A DNA stretch of 64,000 nucleotides from Spizellomyces punctatus DAOM BR117 (Eukaryota): assembly GCA_000182565.2 (NCBI GenBank), contig KQ257452.1, one strand, 5' to 3'. Under the pieces are notes generated by a model. The model ran no database searches. It worked only from the letters and a program-made list of their open reading frames with translations, and was not told the origin of the DNA. The position numbers and the translations under genes were made by a program. Within the stretch, counting starts at the first letter, position 1. Each line of letters opens with the position of its first letter. Positions 1 through 34,035 of the stretch are shown one piece after another.

Positions 1-1841
1 TGGGGCTCCTGTTCCTGAGATAAACTGCTGTCATGATTGCCTCACCCCAGAACTTGGAGCTGAGTCCACTGTGGTGCAGCATGCACCTTCCCATTTCCAC
101 CAGCGTCCTGTTCATCCTCTCAGCAACACCATTCTGCTCTGGTGTGTAGGGGGTGCTGAATTGCTGCTGAATTCCCTTCTGCTTGCAGAATTTCTTGAAT
201 TCTTCGCCCACATACTTTCCCCCATTGTCTGATCTGAGAGTTTTGATCTTCTGTCCCATGAAGTTGGTTGCCCAGGCCTCAAACTCCTTGAATTTGCTGA
301 GAACCTCACTCTTCTCCTTCAGAAGATAAACTGCCATCATCCTTGACTTGTCATCAATGAATGTGACAAAGTACTTTGCCCCACCATGACTTGGTGTCTT
401 CATGGGCCCACACACATCACTGTGAACCACCCCCAGCAGTAGAGCAGCTCTAGCTGCTTCTCCCTTTGGAAAAGGGACGCCTGGTGATCTTTCCAATGGC
501 ACAGGCTTCACATGGTGATGTTTCTGTGTGACTCTTGACCTCCAGACCGCTTCCCAGCTGGTTCCTAGCCAAGATTTTGATGCTGTTGACGTTCAGGTGT
601 CCTAACCTGCGATGCCAGAGGTCCAAACTCATTCCAGAGGCTATGTTTGCATGTTCTCTTGCATGAAACATGTATAGACCGCCACCTAGAGTTCCCTGGA
701 TTGCTTCCTGGCCATCTGAAGTCTTGATACAGCATCCCTTGCTGCCAAACTCAACTTTGGCACCATTTTCAGTGGCTCTTCTTACTGAAAACAAGTTCTT
801 TTCAAGCTTGGGAACAAACCACATGTCTCTGAGGGTACAGAATCGGTTTCTGCCTGTCTCAAGTGTGATCTGGCCCTTCCCTATTGCCTGAACTGTTCTG
901 TTGTCTGCCAGATGGACTTGAATTGGTGACATCTCCATGTAATTGGTCATCCAATCCTTCCTGTGTGACATGTGCTGTGAGGCACCCGAGTCCACAATCC
1001 ACCAGACTGCTCCCTGAGAGGTTTTGGTGTCATCTCCCAACTGAGTAAAGAATAGGAACTCATTCTGAGTTGCCTGACTGGTGCTGGCTTGATTGGCTTG
1101 TTGTTTGGTGTCTGCCAGAAACTTCCTGCAGTCCTTCTTGAAGTGACCCTTCTTGTTGCAATAGAAGCACTTCCCTGCTATCTTCTTGGTCCCACCATGC
1201 TTGCCAACCTTCCGCCTGCCATCCCTGCTGAAAAAGGCCTTCCCTTTGCTATCTCCTTCACCCCCAGCTTCCTTCCTGCGTGTTTCTTCATGTAAAAGCT
1301 GTGATGTGAGGAATTCCAGAGTCAGAGAATCACTCCTGGCCTCCAAAGACACCACCAGCTGTTCATAACTCTCTGGTAGGCTGTAGAGTAGGGTGATGAC
1401 TTGGTCTTCTTCACTGACTGGCACCCCAATGGCCTCCAACTGCTGAGCCATTGTCCTGACCGTGTTTATGTGTCCCAACATGCCCCCAGTGCCATCTTCC
1501 ATCTTCAGAGTGAGAAATTTCCTCCTTAGATAGAGCCTACTGGCAATTCCCTTCCTTTGGTGGATGTCACTGAGCTTTAACCAGGCCTCTTTTGCAGTTA
1601 CAGTGGTCTGTACATGCATGAGTTGGGCATCACTCAGTGACAGAGCAATTACAGCCATTGCCTGCTCATCCCTTCTCCTCCAATCCTTCTCAGAGGTTCC
1701 CTCCATGCTCTCATCCCCCTCAATCACACCCCACAGTCCCTTTTCCTTTAGCAACATCGTTATTTTGAACTTCCAGAGGTGGTAGTTCTCGCCATTGAAC
1801 TCTTCCAGTGTGAGTTTGGTGTCCAAGTCCATGTTTGACAT
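1..1841 (-). pseudogene. copia gag-pol of family 1, frameshifted near 473
   Basis: ORF 450-1841 stops after RRPF. Removing one T at ~473 restores PKGEAARAALLLGVVHSDVCGPMKTPSHGGAKYFVTFIDD, which stays open to the window edge. Confidence 0.9.
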
Positions 1842-2008
1842 GTCTGAGCTGATTTGGTGAGTGGATTTGCTGTTGGGGAAGAGGTGAAATCATGCTGGTG
1901 TGGTAGGTGGTCCAAATATGAGGTTGGGAAGGAGATAGGTCCATCAGGAAGATGGTGTGGCCATCAGAAAAGAGATTTGAAGCAGGAAAATATCAGTGAT
2001 AGCTATCA

Positions 2009-2020
2009 GGGCTCATAACC
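2009..2020 (-). promoter_or_regulatory. Primer binding site GGTTATGAGCCC directly after the LTR
   Basis: Minus strand reads ...TTCAATA|GGTTATGAGCCC, closely resembling the PBS of Drosophila copia-type elements primed by an internal fragment of initiator tRNA-Met. Confidence 0.8.
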
Positions 2021-2532
2021 TATTGAACTTAGCGCTTGGAACACTGATTTCCCATGTAGAAATCACTTCTGAAAGGCCTAGTAATGCCTGTGGCCGCTAG
2101 TAAGACTTCTGGGTGCAGTAACTTGTGGGATAACACGCTTGTATTAATCCAGAGACGTGCAAAAGTCCCCTTTATATAACCCAGTACATTCTCCAGCCTC
2201 CCTCCGCCTTTGTTTACTGTTTACATGCTTCAGCCCACTTGTTTACATGCTCAGCCGTGCTCAGCAATGCTCAGCAGCTTCAGCCATGCCTTGGCAAACA
2301 TTACCTGAAGATCTAGATCATCACAAACCTTCCAGACCTTCTAAGAGCGCTTACATGATGATTTACCCCTTTAAATCATTCCCACACGCGTCTGTGATCA
2401 TTCTGATTACTCTATGTCCAATTCGCCACGTTGTAACTTAGCCAAATCAGATGTGAACTGTCTAATGACATCCCAGCATGATCTCACATGATTTATAGAT
2501 CATACAGCGTGGTTTAAGCCTGAATCTCAACA
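2021..2532 (-). repeat. 5' LTR of copia family 1 (512 bp, TGTTGAG...TTCAATA)
   Basis: Near-identical inverted copy at 4476-4988; contains a TATATAAAGG box; abuts the PBS. Confidence 0.93.
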
Positions 2533-4404
2533 GTAGGCATGCAGGGTATGGTTCCATAGCCTTCCAGCTTGCTTCAAACCATAGAGACCTTTCTTCAACA
2601 AGCAAACAAACTTGTCTGGTGGGTGCTCTGTTGAAATTCCTAGGGGTTGCTCCACATACCACTCTGAATTGACCTTGCCATTCAGAAATGCTATTGCAAC
2701 ATCCATTTGATCCAATAAAAGCCCATGCTTTGCTGCCAGGGCAAAGATCAGTTGCAGAGCAGGGAAGGAGATGATGGGTGAAAAGGTCTCATCATAGTCC
2801 AATCCATGGATTTGACTGTACCCTTTGGCTACAAATCTTGCTTTATGCCTTTCTACAGTGCCATCAGTCTTCCACTTTATTTTATAGACCCATTTGTGGC
2901 CAATTACAGGCCTTCCAGAGGGTCTGGGGATGATTTCCCATGTCCCATTTTTGACCAGTGATGCATATTCAGCCTCCATGGCTTGCATCCAGGCTTCTTT
3001 CTGGGGTGATTGCAGCGTGCCATTAAGTGTTTTTGGGTCTTCATGGCTGAAACCTTCTTGCTGCATCTCCAGATCTGTGGTGGTGGTGGTGGGGGGTCCT
3101 GAGGGCATTCCTAGGTGTGCATGGAAGGCCTCAACATCATTGTTTTCTCCTTCCAAATCACTGGGGAAATGCTGCTGTTCCCAGAGGTCAAGTGCAACAG
3201 TGTCCTTGACATGCTCCAATGGCTCCCAAGTACTCTCAGTTCTGGGGTAACCCTTCCATTTGACAAGGTAGTATGTCTTGTCACCTTGTTTATCCTCAGC
3301 AAGGATCTCCTCCACAGGGAACTCCTGCTCTTCTTCTTCCAGAAGTGAACCCATCAGTTCAGAGCATGCATCAGATTGCCCTTTAACTGCCTCATCAAAT
3401 GCCACATCCCTAGACTCCAACATAGTGTCATTCTGGGGATTCCACAGTCAATAACATCATGAATTTTGCCCATAACCAACCAGAATCAACTTTGCTGATG
3501 TGGGATCCAGTTTCCCTCGTAGTGGCTTCAGTATTTGCATGTAGGCAATGCATCCAATTGCTCTCAGATGGTCTACATTAGGGTGTGCCCCTGTCAAGGC
3601 CTCAGAGGGGGTAATCTTCCTCTCCAGCAGCACCTTGGTCGGGCTCAAATTCCTCAAATAATTGGCAGATTCCCAGACTTCTGCCCACAGCTTCTGGGGG
3701 AGGTTATTCTCGTGCAGAATAGACCGAACCTTATCCTCCAGAGTCCTGTTCAATCTCTCAGCAGCTCCATTCTGCTGGGGAGTATAGTGCATCATAGTTT
3801 GGTGGGTGATGCCCTCAGATTTGAGGTAGGCATCAAACTGGTGGTTCACAAACTCACTGCTGCCATCAGTTCTGAATGCCTTGATCATCCTTTCAGTCAG
3901 ATTCTTGATCCAGGCCTTAAATTCCTTGAACTTTTCTAGGCACAATGTCACTGATTTCAAGTCAAGATAGAAGCATTTGCTGTATCTGCTTCCAAGATCC
4001 AAGAATGTGAGCACATATCTGGCTCCACCAAGTGATTTGGTGCATATTGGTTGACATATGTTGCTACATATGACCTCCAAAAGCTGGTAACTCTTCTTGG
4101 GTAATTCAGGAAAGGGCAATTGCATTTGTTTACCCTTCTGACATCCATCACAAAGCTGGTCTTCAACCACTGCTTTGCCATCAAAATTAAGACTATCAAC
4201 CATACTGGTGAGCATCTTCAAATTGCCATAACTTAAATGGCCTAACTGCCGATGCCACAGCTTCAGTTTCCCACTGTCCTGCTTCTCAGGGCGACCCAAA
4301 GCTTGGTCTTCATGCTGTACTTCAGCTCCCATTACTTGGGAGTCACAGCTCATGCTGCCAGGGTAAGCAGCAAACTTGTAAAGCTCCCCTTCTCTGTTTC
4401 CTGC
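2533..4404 (-). mobile_element. Ty1/copia family 2, inverted internal segment: GAG-pre-integrase, integrase, chromodomain, N-terminal half of RT (degenerate)
   Basis: LWHRQLGH...CDGC, RTDGSSEF, QQNGAAER, KLDP...LVGY, SRDVAFDE; then chromodomain FPVEEIL...YLVKWKGYPRTESTWEP; then copia RT (WMQAMEAEY...KARFVAKGYSQIHGLDYDETFSP...LYGLKQAGRLW). In-frame stops near 3450-3460. Confidence 0.93.
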
Positions 4405-4475
4405 TGTTGAGATTCAGGCTTAAACCATGCTGTATGATCTATAAATCATGTGAGATCATGCTCGGATGTCATTAG
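4405..4475 (+). repeat. 71-bp partial copy of the family-1 LTR 5' end, in tandem with a full LTR
   Basis: TGTTGAGATTCAGGC...GTCATTAG is repeated immediately from 4476. Confidence 0.9.
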
Positions 4476-4988
4476 TGTTGAGATTCAGGCTTAAACCACA
4501 CTGTATGATCTATAAATCATGTGAGATCATGCTGAAATGTCATTAGACAGTTCACATCTGATCTGGCTAAGTTACAACGTGGGGAATTGGACTTAGAGTA
4601 ATCAGAATGATCACAGACACGTGTGGGAATGATTTAAAGGGGTAAATCATCATGTAAGCACTCATAGAAGGTCTGGAAGGTTTGTGATGATCTAGATCTT
4701 CAGGTAATGTTTGCCAAGGCATGGCTGAAGCTGCTGAGCATTGCTGAGCACGGCTGAGCATGTAAACAAGTGGACTGAAGCATGTAAACAGTAAACAAAG
4801 GCGGAGGGAGGCTGGAGAATGTACTGGGTTATATAAAGGGGACTTTTGCACGTCTCTGGATTAATACAAGCATGTTATCCCACAAGTTACTGCACCCAGA
4901 AGTCTTACTAGTGGCCACAGGCATTACTAGGCCTTTCAGAAGTGATTTCTACACGGGAAATCAGTGTTCCAAGCGCTAAGTTTCAATA
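4476..4988 (+). repeat. Solo LTR of copia family 1
   Basis: Reverse complement of 2021-2532 with about a dozen differences seen by eye; no PBS follows; followed by CCTAC. Confidence 0.93.
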
Positions 4989-6134
4989 CCTACCTCCTCG
5001 AAAACAGCTTTAAACAGCTGGCACATGAGCCTTGTGTTTATATTTGGCAAGGGGAAGAGTTCCAGAAAGCCAAACCACATGAGAAAGATGAGTGCACAAA
5101 CATAAACAAATGGCTCATCATACTGGCAGTTTATGTCAATGATCTGGTTATTGCAACCAAGTCAAAAGAGGACATGAATTGGGTCAAAACAACATTATCA
5201 GCACAATTTAAGATGCAGGATCTTGGCCCTACCCACCATATCTTGGGTTTAAGGGTAATCAGAGATGAACTGTGCAGCACTCTTTCCCTGGATCAAGCAC
5301 ATTAGATTGGTGAAGTGCTCAGAAGATTCAAGATGGAAAACTCAAACCCAGTGTCAACCCCACTGGATACCTCTGTTCAATTTGAGGCTCTTGGGTCAAG
5401 GCAACCCATGGTAGATAAATTGAAGTACCACAGTGCAATAGGTGGCTTGATGTTTGCTGCAATTGCCTCTAGGCCTGACATCAGTACAGCAGTTGGGATA
5501 CTTGCTAGGCACTGTGAGGCACCTGGAAACATGCACTGGACAGGCATAAAGAGGATATTTTGGTACCTGCAAAAGACAGCAAGCTACGGGCTTGTTTATC
5601 AGCAAAACAGTGACCTATTCTGATGCAGATTGGGGTGGAGACCTCTCAGATAGGAAGTCAACCTCAGGATGGCTTCTCAAGCTATCAGGTCATGCTATTG
5701 CTTGGAAATCTTCAAAGCAGAGATGCATAGCACTCTCCACAGTTGAGACAGAGTATATTGCAGCATCAGATTGTGCACAAGAGGTTATTTGGATGAGAAA
5801 CCTCTTAGCAGAGCTCAGGTTTTTGGAAGTCAAACAAGGCCCTACTGTGCTCAAAATGGATAACAATGGTGTGATGGAACTGGCAAAGAACACCCTGATT
5901 TCACAATGGATGAAGCATATTGATATACACTATCATTTCCTCAGGGAACACATCCAGAGTGGTGAGATTTCAGTTTGAAGATGCCCCACTCAACAGATGA
6001 CTGCAGATGTTCTTACCAAGGCCATTCCTGCACCGAGGTTCACCCAGTGTTGTGCAGAACTTGGCATTCAATCACTGGACAACGTGACAAACAAAAGAGC
6101 CTAAGAATAGAATGGAATTTTGGGCAAGGGGAAG
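4989..6134 (+). mobile_element. Ty1/copia family 2, C-terminal RT + RNase H + polypurine tract (degenerate)
   Basis: EPCVY...LAVYVNDL (YVDDL motif), MQDLG, SRPDI, YSDADWGGD...RKSTSG, ALSTVETEY, KHIDIHYHF. Stops and frameshifts present. Purine tract GGGCAAGGGGAAG at 6122-6134. Confidence 0.93.
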
Positions 6135-6312
6135 TGTTGGAATTCATCAAAACACTTTCTTAGTTAGTTGCTTTATGCACCCAAAATTAGAGGTTGAAGT
6201 CAGGTTGTCATCATGTGATCTGTACTATACTTAGGACCCCATTTTTTCTCCACCTCTCAGGTGCACCCAGTCTAGTTGTAGGATAACACCTATTTCTCAA
6301 CTTTCCCCAACA
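6135..6312 (+). repeat. 3' LTR of copia family 2 (178 bp)
   Basis: Starts TGTTGG right after the PPT and ends CCAACA (6-bp terminal inverted repeat). No second copy in the window. Confidence 0.75.
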
Positions 6313-6862
6313 GAAAATAGTATAGTAGGTGGTTGTACAAGATACTGGCAAAACTGGGTTATCTATTGTAATAATAGGCAACCTAATGGGGCCAACTTCT
6401 AAAGGGCTTAAAACTTAAAGTCCAGGTGTTTTAGGTTTTAAGTATAGAATATTATATAGGAAAATAGGGTTACTTAGTTGCAAACAGAGCCTCCAACTAC
6501 TACTGGTAAGGTTTAACTATAGGTCTTCTGGCTTCAAATTTGGACTATACTGAAAAAGTGATACTCAGTATTTAACTAATTAGAGGCTACAATTAATTTA
6601 GTATTATTTATAATCTGCCCTGTATTTTTCTTTCAGTAATACAGCTCCTTTAAGCTACCTAGAGATAGTCTGCATGCTGGATCACACTGTAGCATGCCTC
6701 CTAGCTGGCTGGCTACCCAGCTCAAGTGTGCAGTATTATTATAATACAATATAATTACCCAGGAGCTGTTACCAGGTAGGCTGAGTTACTTTAGTGGTAT
6801 TTATATGAATGTCCATATCTCCTATTGCCCTACCAATTCATATACCACATGTGGTGACCACT
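6313..6862. other. AT/TpA-rich, CpG-free degenerate sequence (old repeat relic or eroded gene 3' region)
   Basis: No CG dinucleotide seen, many TA steps, no ORF. Confidence 0.55.
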
Positions 6863-9398
6863 TTATTTTGCCATGTCAGTTACCAAGGGGTCATAATAGG
6901 CAGGCATTCCCATATGCATATTTTCAATCTTCTGGTTCAGAGTAAGATTAGATGTTGTCCTAGACTTTAGTGGAGAGACCTCTTCTTGTGATGAGTGATC
7001 TGTGGCTGTCTCGGGAACAGGGTCGGGGTATGGTAGGTGCTTGTCTTCAACAGGCATATTTTCGACAGGCACATCAAATACAGCCGGTGGCAGTGGTGAC
7101 GGTGGTAGCGGAATCCCCACTATCGAAAAAAATTTGTGTAAGGCCCGCATGACCTAACCGATATACTGTCTGATGTACCTGCAAGTGATAAGGCTGATTC
7201 CACAGGGGGCACAATGAGTGGGCCGTCATGTTTATCTTCATCTGATCCGCCTGGATGCCATGTGAGGGTGACTCTCGAGAAAAATCACAATGCTTTACAA
7301 CTAACCAATAACAACTGGAGCGCTGGGCTCGCTATTTCTCGACCATCCAGTTTCGTTGGCGGCCTGCACCTGGAATATGTATATGCAATTCGTGTCGGCT
7401 TTGTTATACGTGTACGAGACGACATCATCTGGCCCATCATCACATGGTATCTCTAGACGACTTAAGATCGGAGCCGAGCTGTCTCCCACCTTGCGAAGAG
7501 GTGTTTTGATGATCGTAATCCCGTATGTGTGTATTTTTAAATTTTTCCCTCGCGGACACGTAAATGATACCAGAAGCGCCGAGGTTCCAAGTATCTGGAC
7601 TCGCAGATTGAATGGTACTGGGGGTGTGGAGCTCCCTGGGCTTGCAGGCAAACTTTCCTTTTGAGGGATTTCAGGTCTCTCTACGGAGGTAGTGGTATCA
7701 GCATCAGCCAGCATTTCTAACGGTAAGATCATTTTGATTGATCACACTCACTCAGTACAGCATAGGTTGGCGGAGTTGGTACCCCCTCCACATCCTGGTG
7801 TCCCGCAGCCAGTTGGAAGAAGTATATGGTTCCACTTAATAACCCCTCTAGCCGGAATGTTCGCACAGCAGATGGCAAGCAGTCACGAGAGGCCGTCGCA
7901 TCATCTGCAAAGACACATGTGGTCTCTGTTGGATTAAGCTCCGAATGCATGGCCTTGCTATAACCGTCCTGCGGGTGCATGATATCCACAGTACAAACGC
8001 CATTGATCATGGCAGAATCCGTTGAATACCGTAGCACGAGCCTAGAGAATACAGGGTCTCCATCGCCCCCCGCTGCCTCTTCAGGAATAGAGTAGGATAT
8101 ATCGACTGATGTTGCAGATACTGGCACTACCTTAGGTGGTTGCAGTTTTGGTAGCTTTGCTATTATGTTACCGTCAACGTTCCAAATACGTGAAATAATA
8201 AACAATCTGAGCTTCCTTACTGGCTATGAGTGCCTTTCGCTGAGAGTCTTGTACCTCCTTTTCTCGATGTTGACAAGCCTTACAGACGTTACTTTCAGGC
8301 TTCCTATGAACAGCGTTGTACCGGTAAATATAAAGAGACGAGATCTCTTTTTCCTTGTCCTGAAATTGAACGTCACAATGTGAGAAAATTACTACAAAGC
8401 CGTTCTACACCCGCACACATATACCTTGACAGCTTCTTCAAGGTGATGGTTCCTTTCCCCGTATTCTGAGTTGTCTTTCTCAAGAGAGTACACCCGAGAC
8501 CGTAGATGGCGATTGTCTATTGTCAGGTTTTTTTCAATCAGCTCAGCTCTCTTCACTGCATCCTGGAGAGAGCCATCAGACGGTGTAAAATACTGGTTTT
8601 CCAATGGAAACTTACCGCGGCAATCCTTTCCTGTTCAACTAATCTCCGATTCAATGAGTCTACTTCTCTGCTTAATTTCTCGCGTTCCCCAAGATTTCTA
8701 TCGGCAATAAGCGCTTCAAGACGGATGTTTTGATCTCTAAGGCGTCGCCTATCCTCGCTGATATGCCGAATTTCACGCGCATTTGCAGAGAGCTGAGTAA
8801 AGTAGATCTTCAGCTTGTGCTGCACAACGGAGATGCATTTAAGACGTTATGAATTGGTTCGTGAGTGCAAAGTTGGTCATATGGTGCTCGGGAACATACT
8901 CTCAGTCCAGCAAGCTCCTCACGCAGTGCTCTAATAACTCGCTCCTCACTCTGCCATTCCAGCTGTTCAATCTCCTTCTGCTGTCGACGTTCTATCTTTC
9001 CATCCATGGGCACTTTGCATTAGCGTGCATGCTAGTAAGCACAAATGACCTAGAGTTACCAGGTTCACCACCATCTTTACCTGTTTCAGTAGGGCATTTT
9101 CATGCTTGAGCCTTACTACTTCAGCGTCCTTCTCACGAAGCAAAGTCTGGACAGCTGCCAGATTTGAGGGCACAAAGCCGTGCTGTGGCTTGACAATTGA
9201 ACGGATAGTAGCAGGGGATTCATCACTGGAAGCTCGACACTTGAAGGAGGGTGGGGCTTTGTGATGGTGCGTTTCGACTCTCCGAGCAGATGCTTCATGG
9301 GATGTATTCAGCACGCGGGGAAGGAAGTAGGTGTTATGGTTGGGGTGTTGATTTTGCGGCGTTATTTGATTCTCAGAGAGGATCTCTACTGGTTCCAT
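6863..9398 (-). CDS. Lebercilin (LCA5)-like coiled-coil protein with two C-terminal fibronectin type III domains; multi-exon, start and end uncertain
   Basis: Exons give LKHENALLKQ/IERRQQKEIEQLE...RALREEL...LEALIADRNLGEREKL (lebercilin pattern), then PPKVVPVSATSVDISY...LEGLLSGTIYFFQLAA and PPVPFNLRVQ...YIFQVQAANETGWSRNSEPS (FN3). Confidence 0.7.
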
Positions 9399-9617
9399 CT
9401 TGCGCTCTTGTGGTGGAGTGGGAGACCGAGAGACATGGTCCCAATCGGAGCCTAGATTATGTAATGCTGGTCTTGTAGTCACGTGAGATTGAAGAATATG
9501 AGGTTCTCCTACCGACGTGTTGCCGCGATCTGCCTGCCATTGGAAGAGGATCAGTTGCAGTCCTGACACCTTCAGTTCAATATCAGTGCCGAGTATAATC
9601 CTTTAAGAGTACCCACC

Positions 9618-12274
9618 ATGCCAGACGGTGAAGGTATACAGCGCAAATCTCTACCGCTCATGTAACGCAGAGCACTAGTTTTATCAGTTCACATTCGATG
9701 TATGCCAGTGATATTCAATTTCCGGCTTTCTCTGTTTTTTTCATCAATAGGTGCGCTACAGGAGCTTCGTCAATACTGGGAATTTGCGGCAGTCTGTCAA
9801 TTTTTGCACTTGTTTCACCACGCGCTGCGTCTGTCGGAATTTAGCAGCGATGTATGGAGGGAGCTTGCCTCAGCTAAAATGGCACTGGAAGAATCACTAA
9901 CCAATTGTATAGGAGCTTGAAATTCATCTGACTACATGTCCAGTCGAGGAAAAACTCATCGATTTGCACGTCAGGCTACTGAAATCCTTAGTCGGTCCAT
10001 TGGCAGCACGGCAAATCAGGTAGTGTGTACACCATTCGAGTTTCGACAAGAAGGTATCTCACCCTTTTATAGTACTGAGAATTGGCAGACATATTTACAA
10101 AAGGAATTTGCAAAGACCCACGCTCACAGCGACATCTTTGCCCAGGGGGTCGACTATGTTGACCTTCCGTTGCGTAGCAAGGTCTGTTTACATGTGGCAT
10201 CACGGAGATGGATTTCGGTAATCAACATACGCTCGAAATTCATCCAGGTTCTCGTTCTCCACTCTTTGTGCGAGCGACAGTTCGATAACGCCGAGAGATT
10301 CCGAGCATCGCTTAATACTGAAGAAGAGACGGAATGGGTATGTTGCAGTTGATATCAAGTCATCTGAATGTATTCTCACACCGGCATATTACAGCGCGTA
10401 GAGCATGTTGGCTCTGACGCGAAAGGGAACGTGTACTGGCTTTTTGATGGTAGCTGCTCTTTCAGGATGTGCCATTGGCTACGCTGCGTATTCTTCATAT
10501 TGACGCTTATTTTAACAGACAATAGGCTTTATAAGGAAGCACCAGCACCCACTATTGGTAAATCTCGTAATCAAAAGAAAGGGAAATTGAAATCGGGTAA
10601 TAAGAATGACTTACCTTGGGAGTTGGTAATATTTCACGATGTTGTTTAGGTCTTCGCAAATCTAAAACTAAAATCCAGCTGCCCGTTTGAATAGATATGT
10701 TCAAGCATGGAGGAGTGGCAATCATTCCCAGAAAGATTCAAGAAGTCTAGAAGCGCCGTGGAAAAAGAGTTCTATCTGTTCCTAATAGAAGATGCGCTTC
10801 CGAAAGTGCTTGCGGATCTCGAGGTATACAGTTTTGCTCGTTTGTGTCACATTTTGTGGAGGCTCATTGATTGGAATTAGAATAAGGAAAAGCAGAGACG
10901 TGTACAGGAAGCAATGAACAATCGCAAAAGATCATCACGATTACAAGTCAGAGAGTTAGAGAAAATGGAACAAGAAAGGCAGGAGCAGCTTATACGGGAG
11001 CAACGGGAGCAAGAAAGATCGCGAAGGAGCCAGCTAGACAGAAAGCAGCGAGAAGAACTAGTATGTTCGAAGCTAATTGCGCATTCCAAATGAGCCAACC
11101 TTAGGATGGGAAATCTGATCATTTGCTTGGGTAGGAGAGGCAACGAAGAATTGAAGCACGCGAGCAACGTATTATGGAGCGAGAGGCACGCTTGCATGGA
11201 TTGCGTGAAGACAAAGGCCATGTTATAAATCCGTCGGACGAGGACGCGTGTGCGCGAGAGCAAACCACGTCTCAACCAGCAACCCGCCGCAAGAGGAAAA
11301 GGCACGATGAATTCGAAGAGCGATGGTATTTTGATTGTGTCTGCGGCGTTCATGGAGACAATCTTGACGGTTGGTGCTGCACTTTCGATGTTGTACGACA
11401 CCGTTCACTTACGCTGAAGTGCCGTTTAGATGGAACTCCGATGATTGCCTGTGGAAAATGTGGCGTTTGGCAGCACATTGGATGTCTTGCGCAAGCCCCT
11501 GGTGCCAAAGCAGATGATGTAGACATTCAGAAGTGGGAAGCACTGGACTATGTCTGCAATAGATGTGCGCGCCACGGAAACCAAGAGAGAGCGCGAGTTG
11601 TATCGCACAACGCAGGAATTTCGAGCCGAGGAAGCGATATTCATGAGGTTGGTCCACAAGCCGGTCGAGGCAATCCAATTGGGTCTATAGGCAATGGTGT
11701 GGCGAGTTCGGTGGGACACAACCGTGCAAAAACGTCGGCAATGGCAGGTCATCCAAATTGGATATCAAACTACGTGCATTCTCCAAAAGGGGTTGTTGCA
11801 CGGACGGCCGCGGGACCTGGTCCCGACGAAGCACCTTCCTCTGTGACACCATTCGTCAACACTGCCCTTCACCCCTCACTAGAGTCAATGGCCCTCCCGC
11901 ATCCCGCATCACCAGCTTACTATCAACCCTATTCTGCTACCGCGGTGCTCCCATCTGGTGTAGCCCCTCCCGCGCACAAGGCCATTACTGCTAGTGTTGC
12001 AACGTCCGGGACAGATACCGCGTCCGCCGCTGCATTTCTAGCGAGTCTAGCTGCTGGATATAAGCCGCGACCAGGGCCGGCAGCCGTTGAAAGCTTTCCA
12101 GCGCCTGTATCGCTTGTGCCCGCCCAGCAACCGGGACCCCCTCTTTCTTCGAATCTAATAGGGTCAACAGAGTGTGCGACCCCCTTCTTGCGACCCGGAG
12201 GCGTGTCATCCGATTCTGAAATGAAACAAAACGGTCTACCTGTGAGCACAACAGAACAAGGGAAGCCGTTGTAA
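9618..12274 (+). CDS. RSF1/CECR2-like ISWI partner (DDT/WHIM-type N-terminus, PHD finger); multi-exon
   Basis: CACCATG start, intron 9634-9750, ELRQYWEFAAVCQFLHLF, YVDLPLRSK/VLVLHSLCE, VGSDAKGNVYWLF, RKRSSRLQ, PHD CVCG...MIACGKCGVWQHIGC...CNRC. Confidence 0.8.
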
Positions 12275-30446: not shown

Positions 30447-33400
30447 TTAATACGATCCCTGTCGGGTCTGAGCAGGTGAAGGAACGGTAGGTAATTGGGG
30501 TCCATTGTACGGAGTGGGATCCACCCATGTGGTCCCCCCCGCAGGCATCTGTTGTTGCAGTTGTGGCGGCTGTCTCGAGCGACCTGACGATCGGGATCGG
30601 GACGATCGGGTGATGGGTGATTTTATCTTCCGATTCGGGCAGCACAGACATCTCAATATCGAAAATAGGATGAATAGGACTAGAAGACCTCCAAATACAA
30701 GGAGAGGTATGGCGATCTGCGGATGGGCACTGATCCAGTCAACTGCACGTTGCACTGCGGCACCCAAATTTCCTTGTGAGCATGATGACCGCTGTTTCTG
30801 TGGTCCTCATTAACAAACATACCAAAATTTCCAGCTTCACAGTTGCCTTGTTTGCAGACGCCTCCTCCGGAAAAACCACAAGGTGTTCCATCAATGAAGT
30901 AACTATTGAGTTGAAGACATAATCCTTGTCGTGTTTGACAGAACATTTGGCACTCGGAGCCACGCCCTGGACAGACGGATGTGGTTCCCAACGAAGACGC
31001 TTGGTTTTGACATTGCAAGTCCCTGTTAGGCAAGGGCATTTTCAGATCTTGAGATATGTAATAACGCCTAGGCCAAGTGAAGTCATACCTGCTCGTACAC
31101 TGCCCTGATGCACAGGTAGCAGACACGCCCGATACGGTACAAGGGCTTCCGTTCGGTGCAAAGACATCACTGGGGCACGTTGGGCTTACACCATTGCAAA
31201 CCTCAGCGAAGTCACAGACGCCGGTTGATGGTCGGCACGCAGTGCCATTAGTCTTCAATTGACATTGAGAGCAGCATTCATCGTTCTTATCCGAACAACG
31301 CATCCCGGGCTTCAACTTGCAACCAGTTCCGCAACAAGGGTCCCGCGCACAGTCATCTGGAGAACCGCAGTCACACTCTTCGCTGCCTATAATGCATGAT
31401 TCGCGTTACGGAAGTCGGAAAGAATGTGCGATGAATACCACAATTACCTTCTCTTATCCCGTTTCCACATATACCACTAGTAATTGTCTGTAAAGCTCCG
31501 GGTTCTGTAATATCGCATGAATACCGGGAGGGATGCACAATCACCAGAAAATCATGCTCCAACCTTTCAAGCAAGTTCCCAATTTCGGAAAAGCGCCGCA
31601 TATTTGACCAACGCTGCATGGAGAAAATTTGTCTGTAGTCGCACTGTCTGTAGGATGCATAATGAATTGTCCATTGCAATTGCAGCTCGGTGTACATGGA
31701 CAGCAACCGCAGACTTCCGGATCTGTGCATGGACATTGTCCAGCGGCTACATAGGTGATCGAACGTCTAAATGAGTTGCCTTGCGGTGAGATGGTATTTA
31801 GCGGATAACAACATACATGAACAGTCGTGACTCGCTCCGAAGTTGTGGCCAATCTCGTGAGCCACCACTTTCCATTCCAAATTGACTGCAGCTGATACCC
31901 CGGTCCCGGATACAAACTGCGTGCCGGTGTTTGACTGCTGAGTAAAGGATTTTTGCGAGCAGAGCATTGCTAGAAAAAATGGTCGTTAAGAGAATGCTCG
32001 TCAACGGCATTCAAAGTGCCCACTTGCGTACCTAGCCACGCAACTCCTACCGATGGCTCTAAAATAGACACATGAATTCGTTTCTTGGAGCAGCTAGTGG
32101 ATACGATAATGGCTTACCGGTAGGGCAATTTGTCATCAGATGCCATAGTCCAGCCTGGTCTGGATCTTTTTTTCCCCTCCATTCGGAAAAATCGCTCAAT
32201 CTTTGATTGATTGAGTATAAATCGCTACACTCTGTTCAACTATAGTCAACCATGTGCCCTGACTGATTGAAAGAAATGATACAAACCCCGATTCCATTTC
32301 AGCAGATCGTCGTTTGGAGTACAGGTTTCTTGGAGCATCACTTGTATCAAGCCCAGGGAGATGTTAAAGGTGTTCTCATAGAGGCTATTACGGAAGGTAA
32401 AAGCTCAGGGTTCCTTCTCTCAGCGACGTATCAAGTTAATGTGAGACGGTACCTTGATGCCGTGTTCCAGTTCAGCAGTATCTGCGTTAATGCTTTTTCC
32501 TTCCCGCCATGCAATTTCACGTAGGTGCAATCACCCGCGGCCGCCATAAACAGCACTCTCCGAGAGGAAGGGCATCCAGAAGGCGCTCGCTTCACCAATC
32601 CAGCAGCTCTTCTCTCCAGCGAATCGCTATATGCTCGCCGCGCTACTGCATTTGCGGATGGATCGAATGCACATGTGCTAGCCGCTTGAACATCCCGTTT
32701 GCTCAACCATGACGACGCATCGAGGGGATTGAGCCCCCACTGGTCAGGTACAAATTGTAGCGATCGCGTCTCATCATGGTCTTTGAATAAAATCAGACGT
32801 GAAGCTTGATGTCGCAGTGACCGCGAATCGGGGGGTAGAATGTTCACATCAACCTATCCAGAGCGCTACTATCAGACCACTACAGCAGTTACGTTGCGCC
32901 TTTGTGTACATACAGATCGTCTCGTTTTCTTGTATACTTCTATCTCTTTGATATGATACATTTCCCCCCTAGAAACCGGGTCAGTTGAAGTCAGTAAAAT
33001 GTACTGGAATAAATCTCCCTACCATATGGAGAAGCTGCCTTCAAAGACATTTTGCGAGCTGAGCCAGAAAAGTACACCAAAAGACACGACAGAGTCCAGT
33101 GAGAAGCGCCGTCAGAATACGTCAGTGCAGACACATGCAAAAACTTACGTGTCTTTATGAAACATAATTCTTGCCCATCCAACGGACCTTTTCATACCAT
33201 TGACATCAACTCCAAGGACATCCCCCTTATAAGCATTGGCGGCCAGTGCGTGTATGTCTGGACTACTTTGTATTGCACCCTCATTCCTTTGCTCGCCTTG
33301 GACTTGCAAGACGGCTGAGGGATGGAGAAGTGCGTCGTTTGGTATCAAGTCCAATTCAAACGTCTGGTTAATCGCCTGCAGATGCGAACCAGTCATGATC

Positions 33401-33715
33401 TCTATGAGGAGTGAATTTAACGAAAAGCGCGAGGCTTACTCTAAATGAAAGGCTGACACTTCCCACAGAGTGTCGTATTATTGTAATGTTATCAACAAAG
33501 TCATAGAAGCGTATAGGGCGCAAAGGCGGAAGTCGGTGNNNNNNNNNNNNNNNNNNNNNNNNNNNNNNNNNNNNNNNNNNNNNNNNNNNNNNNNNNNNNN
33601 NNNNNNNNNNNNNNNNNNNNNNNNNNNNNNNNNNNNNNCCGAATACTACTGTCAGACGAATAAGGAGGGTGATGACAAGCAGTCCCACTTGGCGTGGGAC
33701 ATTCATCCTTGTCAT
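30447..33715 (-). CDS. ADAM-family (M12B) zinc metalloprotease with disintegrin/Cys-rich region and C-terminal TM; multi-exon, spans the N gap
   Basis: Signal peptide, prodomain, [22 protein letters not shown], Met-turn FIMHP, CGNGIRE, disintegrin CSDKNDECC...[36 protein letters not shown]. Confidence 0.92.
33539..33638. other. Assembly gap (100 N)
   Basis: Run of N. Confidence 1.
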
Positions 33716-34035
33716 CGGCAGGCGATTTGCGGAATAAGTTGACCGCGTTGGTTCTGCCAAAAACGCTGCTTGCTTGCCCGAAATATTTGGGGAAACCGCA
33801 ACTTTTGAGAAATGTCGCAGCTGAGGCAGTGCTGCGAACCAATATCTGAAACGGAGGGCGATGACCCCATCATGGCCGGCGGCAAATTGTTTCCGATTGG
33901 ATCCAACCGCTGAACACTTTATGCATTGGAATCACGCAATTCAAACCTTGGAATCTGCTTCCCAATCGTCAACCTACGTTTTTGGGTGCTGGATTTTGGG
34001 GGGTGGACACGCACTGACTGAAAGAGTTTCACACC

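What the first reader, a model, noticed from the sequence alone, without database searches (positions are those of the whole stretch)
3172..3324. Ty1/copia retrotransposon with an in-frame chromodomain at the integrase C-terminus
Seen: EFPVEEILAEDKQGDKTYYLVKWKGYPRTESTWEPLEHVKDTVALDLWEQ lies in one open frame between the copia integrase tail (SRDVAFDE) and the copia RT. Domain order is integrase->RT->RNase H, which is copia and not gypsy. The three aromatic-cage positions of HP1-type chromodomains are intact (F, W, Y), and no insertion boundaries are visible. Established: integrase-fused chromodomains define the Ty3/gypsy chromoviruses and are linked to heterochromatin targeting; they are not a standard copia feature. 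Inference: an independently acquired methyl-histone-reading targeting module in a fungal copia lineage. I cannot verify from here whether it has been described.
Basis: partly seen in the sequence, partly recalled or inferred. Interest (0 to 1): 0.85.

Follow-up and report, generated by a model that had tools for sequence, protein, structure and literature searches.

The report
Copia retrotransposon carrying a chromodomain
A decayed copy of a copia-type jumping gene in a chytrid fungus carries a histone-mark-reading chromodomain fused behind its integrase, a trait shared by its whole small family and otherwise typical of the unrelated gypsy 'chromoviruses'.

Summary
Window 3172-3324, on the minus strand, encodes the quoted peptide exactly. 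It scores as Pfam Chromo (48.1 bits against a cutoff of 25.1). It lies in one frame between a copia-type integrase tail and RVT_2, its aromatic cage (F/W/Y) aligns with that of HP1, and it models as a chromodomain fold. It is not a one-off. All 12 relatives aligned (38-60% identical) and 8 of 80 metagenome loci carry the domain at the same position. A single origin in the lineage is not rejected (p-AU 0.67). The host is a chytrid of the Spizellomycetales, and one relative comes from Powellomyces hirtus. The window copy is dead: it lacks gag and protease, has in-frame TGA stops, and its RT is split by another copia's LTR and partly inverted. Reads from another strain show an uninterrupted RT and a sense codon at one stop. 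There is precedent: diatom CoDi copia elements with an integrase chromodomain (Llorens 2009; Ustyantsev 2017). My searches found no fungal case. Heterochromatin-targeted integration is inferred, not shown. The donor of the domain is unresolved. The lineage's gag is unexpectedly of the Ty3/gypsy sequence type.

The parts
3457..4413 (-). Element B integrase: end of the pre-integrase region, zinc-binding HHCC region, catalytic core, and first part of the SH3-like C-terminal domain. It is 5'-truncated, with no gag or protease upstream.
   Evidence: Pfam gag_pre-integrs 44 bits, rve 25.2 bits (below cutoff 32.6), rve_3, SH3_retrovirus profile 1-45. tblastn P0003 residues 555-1112 match window 4266-2509 at 46%.
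3448..3459 (-). Two in-frame TGA stops (3457-3459 and 3448-3450) inside the SH3-like domain ('GYGQNS*CY*LWNP').
   Evidence: Both align with Arg in relative P0002 ('NSRCYRLWDP'). At 3450 the X18 reads show G, giving CGA (Arg), in 38 of 39 and 30 of 31 reads.
3325..3447 (-). Integrase tail (end of the SH3-like domain, SRDVAFDE) and an acidic linker.
   Evidence: Alignment A1: R13, D14, V15, F17, E19 are invariant or nearly so in 13 sequences. The AF2 model has low pLDDT (block means 49-55) here.
3172..3324 (-). Chromodomain (Pfam envelope 3175-3315), with cage residues F, W, Y.
2950..3171 (-). Variable, partly low-complexity linker followed by the conserved pre-RT motif (DPKT...W.QAMEAE..SL..NGTWE). 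The presumed IN/RT protease cleavage region (inferred).
   Evidence: Alignment A1: the linker varies in length; P138, W153, A156, E160, N167, T169 are invariant.
2538..2949 (-). RT N-terminal half (RVT_2 profile 1-135).
   Evidence: Ends '...GLKQAGRLWNHTLHAY'.
2533..2537 (-). Target-site duplication CCTAC, left copy (last RT codons before the LTR).
   Evidence: Sequence read. The same 5 bases recur at 4989-4993. Read joints 2533<->4994, 2536<->4991 and 2538<->4989 share 3-5 letters.
2021..2532 (-). 5' LTR of element A (a different, multi-copy copia), starting TGTTGAG.
   Evidence: Inverted repeat, 97%; blastn. Loose read ends at 2021 and 2532 and about 10-fold depth.
2..1889 (-). Element A gag-protease-integrase (runs off the window start).
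   Evidence: Pfam Retrotran_gag_2 165 bits, Pol_BBD, gag_pre-integrs, zf-CCHC, rve 54.5 bits.
4405..4475 (+). 71-nt tandem partial duplicate of the A-LTR start, abutting the truncated 5' end of B's integrase.
   Evidence: 93% identity.
4476..4988 (+). Second copy of the A LTR, inverted relative to the first.
   Evidence: Loose read ends at 4988.
4989..4993 (+). Target-site duplication CCTAC, right copy.
4994..5302 (+). Element B RT C-terminal half (contains the YVNDL motif; RVT_2 profile 161-218).
   Evidence: 38.4 bits. tblastn P0003 1100-1290 matches 4979-5608. In the RT tree the two halves together sit next to P0002.
5303..6103 (+). Element B RNase H region and pol C-terminus, decayed: in-frame stops at 5303-5305 and 5976-5978 and a frame change near 5550-5620.
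   Evidence: ORF list, three-frame translation, tblastn P0003 1297-1448 matching 5616-6071 at 58%.
6121..6420 (+). Purine-rich tract (6121-6134) and probable start of B's 3' LTR (TGTTGG at 6135). The end is not defined. Inferred.
   Evidence: Sequence. Raised ChIP depth and RNA reads with fixed variants in bin 6001-6400, and loose RNA read ends at 6147.

Best explanation
Window 2533-4413(-) plus 4994-~6420(+) is a dead, rearranged copy ('B') of a small Ty1/copia lineage. In this lineage the integrase is followed, after its SH3-like domain and a short acidic linker, by an HP1-type chromodomain that sits upstream of the RT in the polyprotein. The domain was most likely present in the common ancestor of the lineage, which is found in spizellomycete chytrids and in environmental contigs. 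Most likely mechanism (inferred): the protease cuts between the chromodomain and the RT, so mature integrase ends in a chromodomain. The domain's aromatic cage then binds methylated H3 tails (K9me2/3, possibly K27me3) and tethers the integration complex to heterochromatin. That steers new copies into repeat-rich, gene-poor DNA, as in gypsy chromoviruses. Shown: the domain's identity, fold, cage, position and conservation across the family, and the copia backbone. Inferred: the cleavage site, the histone mark, and the effect on targeting.
For: Domain identity: Pfam Chromo 48.1 bits. Best solved relatives by sequence are HP1, CBX7, CDY, MPP8 and SUV39H1 (E down to 3.6e-10). The AF2 model has three strands and a C-terminal helix, with block-mean pLDDT 78-90 over residues 41-90. 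Foldseek hits are all methyl-lysine-reading chromodomains; the crystal structures give target TM 0.70-0.84 and rmsd 1.4-2.5 A. Cage: W and Y are invariant and the first position is Y/F/W (10/2/1) in 13 of 13 family sequences. Copia backbone: RVT_2, gag_pre-integrs, SH3_retrovirus and Pol_BBD. Family feature: 7 of 7 database relatives have rve -> SH3_retrovirus -> Chromo -> RVT_2. 5 of the 150 best representatives are of this type. 8 of 80 metagenome loci have IN-CHR (6 of them also RT) on one strand. Two relatives are uninterrupted gag-pol ORFs of 1457 and 1418 aa. Phylogeny: B sits next to P0002 inside a 9-row all-chromodomain clade (SH-aLRT 99). On IN+RT+RNase H, holding all 8 chromodomain elements together gives a log-likelihood 21.85 higher than the free short search, p-AU 0.67. 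A better copy exists: reads from another strain join the two RT halves directly across the TSD and read CGA where the window has a TGA stop. Analogy: chromodomains of gypsy chromoviruses direct integration to H3K9me chromatin (Gao et al. 2008, as cited in passages read).
Against: No binding, cleavage or insertion-site data exist for this lineage. Only one copy lies in the window, so its position in a transposon nest says nothing statistically. The window copy cannot function: it is 5'-truncated, has stops and a frameshift, and its RT is split. On trees from free searches the chromodomain elements fall into 2-3 groups on an unresolved backbone (3 changes, 2), so one origin is allowed but not demonstrated. 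HP1-type versus Polycomb-type specificity cannot be read from the sequence (HP1 43 bits against CBX7 40 bits). RNA reads over B are near zero (at most 0.56 mean depth per bin, against 21 in the neighbouring gene's bin, with 6% of run X16 read). If the protease cut upstream of the domain, the chromodomain would instead sit on the RT.
Confidence: 0.7

Rival explanations
1. The chromodomain is functional and conserved, but it serves something other than choosing the integration site. Examples: it could be an N-terminal appendage of the RT, retain particles in the nucleus, bind a methylated non-histone partner, or interfere with host silencing.
For: The domain lies between IN and RT, and the cleavage site is unknown. 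Solved chromodomains close in fold also bind non-histone methyl-lysine peptides: CBX7 with SETDB1-K1170me3 and MPP8 with DNMT3A-K47me2 (entry titles).
Against: In every other retrotransposon group where it is reported, the domain is fused to integrase and is linked to targeting. In Ty1 and Ty5 the integrase C-terminal region is where the copia targeting determinants lie (recalled, not tested here).
Confidence: 0.15
2. The domain is a neutral relic in this lineage. It was captured once and is no longer used.
For: The window copy is decayed, and expression over it is near zero in the one RNA run laid.
Against: Cage and core residues (V-K-W-.-G-Y, T-W-E) are invariant across members that are only 38-60% identical overall, while the flanking linkers vary freely in sequence and length. 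Intact full-length ORFs exist.
Confidence: 0.06
3. One-off artefact: a host chromodomain exon inserted into, or misassembled with, a single dead copia copy.
For: The locus is rearranged (inverted LTRs, 71-nt duplication) and the window has a 100-N gap elsewhere.
Against: The same domain sits at the same position in 12 other sequences from independent sources and in 8 metagenome loci. ChIP reads from another strain cover 2801-3600 continuously, with only point differences.
Confidence: 0.01
4. The element is really a Ty3/gypsy chromovirus with a copia-like gene order (as in Gmr1-type elements).
For: It has a chromodomain after integrase, and the lineage's gag scores as Retrotrans_gag/Ty3_capsid.
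Against: The RT is RVT_2 (E 1.5e-40) and not RVT_1. The integrase modules are gag_pre-integrs and SH3_retrovirus, not Integrase_H2C2 and SH3_Tf2-1. The protease is Pol_BBD, not RVP_2. The 21 gypsy chromovirus loci scanned and L011 carry the gypsy-type domains instead. Its nearest RT relatives are ordinary copia elements.
Confidence: 0.01

Closest known systems
CoDi-A / CoDi-I Ty1/copia elements of the diatom Phaeodactylum tricornutum (Llorens et al. 2009, PMC2774666; Ustyantsev et al. 2017, PMC5348765; passages read)
   Same: A Ty1/copia backbone with a (putative) chromodomain at the integrase C-terminus. This is the only copia group reported to have one in the papers I read.
   Different: The host is a stramenopile alga, not a chytrid fungus. 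The window element's nearest RT relatives in my searches are ordinary copia elements of plants, fungi, arthropods and environmental contigs.
Chromoviruses (Ty3/gypsy, e.g. MAGGY, Tf1-type)
   Same: An integrase-fused HP1-like chromodomain with an aromatic cage. Some chromovirus chromodomains are very close in sequence: L019 shares the 14-residue string TWEPLEHVKDTVAL with the window copy. The lineage's gag type also resembles theirs.
   Different: Chromoviruses have RVT_1 RT, RVP-type protease, Integrase_H2C2 and SH3_Tf2-1, the order PR-RT-RNH-IN-CHR, and the chromodomain at the end of the polyprotein. Here the element has RVT_2, Pol_BBD, gag_pre-integrs and SH3_retrovirus, the order PR-IN-CHR-RT-RNH, and an internal chromodomain.
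Chronos Ty3/gypsy elements of oomycetes (Ustyantsev et al. 2017)
   Same: Another case in which an integrase chromodomain is proposed to have been acquired separately from chromoviruses.
   Different: Gypsy superfamily, with dual RNase H.
Ty5 and Ty1 of budding yeast (copia; integrase C-terminal targeting determinants binding Sir4 or Pol III subunit AC40). Recalled, not from a call.
   Same: In copia elements the region just after the integrase core and SH3-like domain is where host-tethering determinants sit. Ty5 also aims at heterochromatin.
   Different: Those are short peptide motifs that bind host proteins, not a folded histone-mark reader.
CopiaMBD of arthropods (de Mendoza et al. 2019, PMC6673714; passages read)
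   Same: A copia lineage that captured a host-type chromatin or DNA-mark reader domain into pol. The authors proposed that it guides insertion into already silenced DNA.

Membership tests
Ty1/copia (Pseudoviridae) LTR retrotransposon | Copia-type reverse transcriptase (Pfam RVT_2) | tested here: met
   RVT_2 E 1.5e-40 (N half) and 1.4e-09 (C half) in the window; 182-252 bits in 7 relatives.
Ty1/copia (Pseudoviridae) LTR retrotransposon | Gene order gag-PR-IN-RT-RNase H (integrase upstream of RT) | tested here: met
   Relatives and loci L001, L002, L005, L006, L008, L009 have GAG/PR-IN-CHR-RT(-RNH) on one strand. In the window the order holds only after undoing the inversion. Reads joining the RT halves support that reconstruction.
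Ty1/copia (Pseudoviridae) LTR retrotransposon | Copia-type integrase and protease modules (gag_pre-integrs, SH3_retrovirus, Pol_BBD) | tested here: met
   B's protease is not in the window; Pol_BBD is seen in P0003, P0005, P0020 and P0088.
Ty1/copia (Pseudoviridae) LTR retrotransposon | Copia-type gag (Pfam Retrotran_gag_2/UBN2). Usual, but not strictly defining. | tested here: not met
   Lineage members with a gag region score as PF03732 and/or PF19259 and not PF14223. Element A in the same window scores PF14223 at 165 bits.
Ty1/copia (Pseudoviridae) LTR retrotransposon | Paired LTRs with a 5-bp target duplication for element B itself | not testable with these tools
   B's 5' end is not in the window and no host genome is held. 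Only a probable PPT and the start of the 3' LTR can be seen.
Chromodomain (Pfam PF00385, HP1/Polycomb type) | Profile match above the curated threshold | tested here: met
   48.1 bits against 25.1; 35.9-54.7 bits in 7 relatives.
Chromodomain (Pfam PF00385, HP1/Polycomb type) | Three-stranded sheet packed against a C-terminal helix | tested here: met
   AF2: E45-54, E57-64, E73-76, H84-93. Foldseek target TM 0.70-0.84 to CBX, HP1, Rhino, MPP8 and Pc crystal structures.
Chromodomain (Pfam PF00385, HP1/Polycomb type) | Three aromatic cage residues | tested here: met
   F/W/Y align with the HP1 cage columns and are conserved as Y/F/W, W, Y in 13 of 13 sequences.
Chromodomain (Pfam PF00385, HP1/Polycomb type) | Binding of methylated lysine on the histone H3 tail | not testable with these tools
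   Needs peptide binding assays.
Chromovirus (Ty3/gypsy) | RVT_1 reverse transcriptase, integrase downstream of RNase H, chromodomain at the polyprotein C-terminus | tested here: not met
   Contrast the 21 gypsy chromovirus loci.
CoDi-A/CoDi-I copia lineage (diatoms) | RT/IN phylogenetic grouping with CoDi elements | not tested

The most novel reading that the evidence does not exclude
This chytrid and soil-fungal lineage is an inter-superfamily mosaic. It has a Ty1/copia PR-IN-RT-RNase H backbone that acquired both a Ty3/gypsy-type capsid (gag) and a chromovirus-type chromodomain by recombination with a co-resident chromovirus. The event was independent of the diatom CoDi elements. The lineage is still active and uses the domain to aim at H3K9me heterochromatin.
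Probability: 0.2. Interest if true: 0.7.

Novelty: new variant of a known kind. Interest (0 to 1): 0.5.

Why it matters
Integrase-fused chromodomains are the textbook example of a transposon borrowing a chromatin reader to choose safe landing sites. They are regarded as the hallmark of one gypsy branch. A second copia lineage with the same solution, in early-diverging fungi and possibly independent of the diatom case, would add a replicate of this convergent 'invention'. Chytrids such as Spizellomyces can now be handled in the laboratory (recalled, not from a call), and ChIP and RNA data under the same species label already exist. So an insertion-site versus histone-mark test is within reach. 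The gypsy-like gag raises the further question of module exchange between the two superfamilies.

Tried and rejected
- I translated the plus strand and got nothing; the feature is on the minus strand.
- no host genome is held, so genomic copies could not be counted directly.
- the exhaustive phmmer search with IN tail + chromodomain + linker was swamped by cellular multi-chromodomain proteins. It yielded only 5 copia-type hits among the 150 best, after local sorting.
- the region-restricted word search with P0002 found 7 proteins, and only the query itself has the domain. This was my last search of that kind.
- ESM Atlas scores were all below 0.9. Two low-scoring diatom clusters are leads only.
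- this tree used a wrong frame for B's RT C-half. I discarded it and repeated the tree.
- AU tests under the mixture model never finished. Only the LG+G4 test did, and that model rejects true clades somewhat more often.
- the chromodomain tree (51 columns) is unresolved, so the donor cannot be named.
- no RNA holder is listed for the stretch.
- the ChIP targets of runs X17-X19 are unknown, so I make no chromatin-state claim for the locus. Copy number from ChIP depth is rough.
- the gag has only a weak match to Drosophila Arc2 (E 0.027).
- L022 is too degraded for ORF-level typing.
- Literature searches and passages read found no report of a fungal copia with a chromodomain. Supplementary tables, for example those of Grau-Bove et al., whose data set mentions Spizellomyces, are closed and might list such a fusion.
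Full report
**1. Observation**

The quoted peptide is encoded on the minus strand. In that frame Pfam finds Chromo (E 1.1e-12, 48.1 bits, cutoff 25.1, residues 45-91) followed by the first 135 profile positions of RVT_2 (E 1.5e-40). The ORF just upstream in the same frame, 3457..4413(-), carries gag_pre-integrs, a weak rve core (25.2 bits, below its cutoff) and the first part of SH3_retrovirus.

**2. The domain is a real chromodomain**

- By sequence, the best solved relatives are Drosophila HP1 (E 3.6e-10 and 1.2e-09), CBX7, CDY1, MPP8 and SUV39H1.
- In the HP1 alignment the window's F, W and Y fall on the three cage columns. Entry 6asz, the HP1 Y24F mutant, has F at the same first position, and CBX7 also has F there. 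The W45/Y48 numbering is recalled.
- An AlphaFold2 model built on a 12-sequence family alignment gives three strands (45-54, 57-64, 73-76) and a C-terminal helix (84-93). Block-mean pLDDT is 78-90 over residues 41-90. The integrase tail and acidic linker in front are poorly defined.
- The best Foldseek matches listed (13 at E <= 0.001) are all methyl-lysine-reading chromodomains. Target-normalised TM-scores run from 0.58 to 0.84; the crystal structures give 0.70-0.84 with rmsd 1.4-2.5 A over 47-56 columns.

**3. State of the window copy**

The copy, which I call B, is dead and rearranged.

- Two in-frame TGA codons (3457-3459 and 3448-3450) interrupt the SH3-like domain.
- The RT stops after '...LHAY' at 2533, where the LTR of a different copia element, A, begins (TGTTGAG...). 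Element A runs leftward as LTR, gag, protease and integrase, with a normal copia gag (Retrotran_gag_2, 165 bits).
- B's RT C-half and RNase H lie on the opposite strand from 4994. They follow an inverted second copy of the A LTR (97% identical) and carry further stops and a frame change.
- Both LTR junctions carry the same 5 bases, CCTAC (2533-2537 and 4989-4993). So the two LTRs look like the ends of a single A insertion into B's RT, followed by an inversion or a misassembly. A 71-nt partial LTR duplicate marks the other breakpoint at 4405-4475.
- B's gag and protease are not in the window.

**4. Read evidence from another strain**

Raw reads of three ChIP runs and one RNA run filed under the same species label were laid on window 1-12000.

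- Reads join 2533, 2536 or 2538 directly to 4994, 4991 or 4989 on opposite strands, with 3-5 shared letters (X18: 25 reads; X19: 2). So in that strain B's RT runs uninterrupted across the target site. This confirms that the two halves belong together and that the A insertion and inversion are particular to the window's copy or strain.
- Twelve near-fixed differences from the window are listed within B. One of them (3450 A>G; 38 of 39 and 30 of 31 X18 reads) turns the second stop into CGA (Arg), the residue that relative P0002 has there.
- Within the chromodomain, one difference is synonymous and one is K57E in a loop.
- X18 depth per orientation over B is 35-61, against 21-34 and 69-88 in the flanking genes and about 400 over element A. 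So B is low-copy and A is multi-copy. This is rough, because the data are ChIP and not input.
- RNA depth over B is at most 0.56 per bin, against 21 in the neighbouring gene's bin, with about 6% of the run read.

**5. Host**

A neighbouring ceramide glucosyltransferase ORF is 92% identical to a protein of Spizellomyces sp. 'palustris' and 67-75% identical to those of other Spizellomycetales.

**6. Lineage feature or one-off**

- Among the 120 hits listed for the 306-aa ORF, 7 carry Chromo together with copia domains. Re-scanned, all 7 show rve -> SH3_retrovirus -> Chromo -> RVT_2. Two are uninterrupted gag-pol proteins of 1457 and 1418 aa, and one is from the chytrid Powellomyces hirtus.
- The exhaustive representative search added P0301, P0309, P0342 and P0388.
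- In a 13-sequence alignment the domain sits at exactly the same place in every member: after SRDVxFDE and a variable acidic linker, and before the conserved pre-RT motif. V-K-W-x-G-Y and T-W-E are invariant, and the first cage position is Y (10), F (2) or W (1).
- A DNA-level scan of metagenome contigs returned 80 loci. Eight of them are chromodomain-copia, with IN and CHR, plus GAG/PR and/or RT-RNH as far as each contig reaches, on one strand. One contig is circularly permuted through its LTR.

**7. Phylogeny**

- On the RT (124 rows, 275 columns), B is sister to P0002 (SH-aLRT 99) inside a 9-row clade made only of chromodomain elements (99). A second chromodomain clade of 4 rows (93) and P0088 lie elsewhere on an unresolved backbone. 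The label needs 3 changes, but well-supported branches force only 1.
- On IN+RT+RNase H with the chromodomain stretch left out (62 rows, 786 columns), there are two chromodomain clades.
- AU tests under the mixture model did not finish. Under LG+G4, the tree with all 8 chromodomain elements held together has a log-likelihood 21.85 higher than the free short search found, with p-AU 0.67.
- A single acquisition in the lineage's ancestor is therefore allowed. It also fits the identical insertion point and the shared unusual gag, but it is not proven.

**8. Source of the domain**

- Of 42 non-copia ORFs around chromodomain matches, 21 are gypsy chromoviruses, 3 are HP1-like, 17 are chromo-only or other cellular proteins, and 1 has only an integrase core.
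- A 54-row chromodomain tree on 51 columns is unresolved. Nine of the 13 copia domains group together (82/86), mixing members of both RT clades. The window copy with P0002, and P0020 and P0088, fall in a polytomy with gypsy, HP1-like and other cellular domains.
- One gypsy chromovirus (L019) shares the string TWEPLEHVKDTVAL with the window copy.
- The comparator loci were picked with a pattern derived from the copia domains, which biases them towards similarity. The donor remains open.

**9. An unexpected extra: the gag**

Every lineage member with a gag region scores as Retrotrans_gag and/or Ty3_capsid and not as copia-type Retrotran_gag_2. These are P0003, P0005, P0020 and P0088 (the last sub-threshold), and L001, L006, L008 and L009. 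A profile built from these gags hits the gag of L011 (E 2.3e-12) and of L022 (E 1.5e-14), but not element A's gag in the window. L011 is a gypsy chromovirus locus whose gag ORF is followed by an RVP_2 protease. Two non-chromodomain copia hits also list PF03732, so the trait is not unique to this lineage. It prompts the mosaic-origin idea given as the novel case.

**10. Mechanism**

Shown: a conserved HP1-type reader fused behind a copia integrase. Inferred: the protease cuts in the variable linker between the domain and the conserved pre-RT motif, so integrase ends in the chromodomain. The cage then binds H3K9me2/3 (or K27me3) and tethers integration to heterochromatin, as reported for gypsy chromoviruses (Gao et al. 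2008, as cited in the passages). In yeast Ty1 and Ty5 the same integrase C-terminal region carries the targeting determinants (recalled). None of this was tested, and B's own position in a transposon nest is a single anecdote.

**11. What is known**

Llorens et al. 2009 reported a putative integrase chromodomain in diatom CoDi-A copia elements and stated that none had been seen in other copia elements. Ustyantsev et al. 2017 still listed only chromoviruses and CoDi-I, and added their Chronos elements. Muszewska et al. 2011 on fungal LTR elements, Grau-Bove et al. on reader-transposon fusions and the other papers checked do not mention a fungal copia with a chromodomain in the passages I read. 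Five full-text searches found none. Supplements could not be seen.

**12. Verdict**

This is a second copia lineage with an integrase chromodomain, in chytrid fungi. Its function is inferred, its donor is unresolved, and its relation to the diatom elements is untested. The window holds only a wreck of it.

Noticed in passing
window 2-2532 (-), 4405-4988 (+): Element A is an ordinary copia (Retrotran_gag_2 gag) at roughly ten-fold read depth. It inserted into B's RT with a perfect 5-bp duplication, CCTAC. Its two LTRs now face each other in inverted orientation, with a 71-nt partial LTR duplicate at the other breakpoint. This is either an inversion or an assembly error.
   Followed up: partly
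P0003, P0005, P0020, P0088; L001:3350-4480, L006:301-1002, L008:600-1472, L009:300-1100; L011:3498-4805: The gag of the chromodomain-copia lineage is of the Ty3/gypsy sequence type (PF03732/PF19259). It matches the gag of a gypsy chromovirus (E 2e-12) but not the copia gag next door in the window.
   Followed up: partly
window 3448-3459 and the whole of 1-12000: Both in-frame stops in B are TGA where relatives have Arg, which fits CGA>TGA. Across the 12 kb, the window has A or T where the other strain's reads have G or C more often than the reverse (X18: A>G 95 and T>C 88, against C>T 57 and G>A 54 places). This hints at C-to-T decay in the window's repeats.
   Followed up: partly
window 6001-6400: RNA reads here (mean depth 9.6) all carry variants that only part of the ChIP reads show, and many have loose ends at 6147. 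So a related copy of what is probably B's 3' LTR is transcribed somewhere else in that strain.
   Followed up: no
window 9201-10400: Two of the three ChIP runs (X17, X19) show a sharp peak at 9601-10000, about 50-fold over the gene bodies. The third (X18) dips just upstream, in bin 9201-9600. The site looks like a promoter between host genes. The ChIP targets are unknown.
   Followed up: no
P0243 (protein): A 1503-aa predicted protein made of 12 tandem repeats, about 121 aa apart, of the short pre-RT segment of this copia lineage. It may be a satellite derived from an element fragment.
   Followed up: no
L001 (4914 nt): The contig is circularly permuted: PR-IN-CHR-RT-RNH, then about 630 nt, then GAG-PR. 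This is as expected if an element was assembled through its LTR or from tandem or circular forms.
   Followed up: no
L019:6133-6264: A gypsy chromovirus chromodomain that shares 14 consecutive residues (TWEPLEHVKDTVAL) with the window's copia chromodomain.
   Followed up: partly
window, inside ORF 33368-33931 (-): The window's 100 N bases (an assembly gap) appear to fall in this stretch, where the translation shows a run of X.
   Followed up: no
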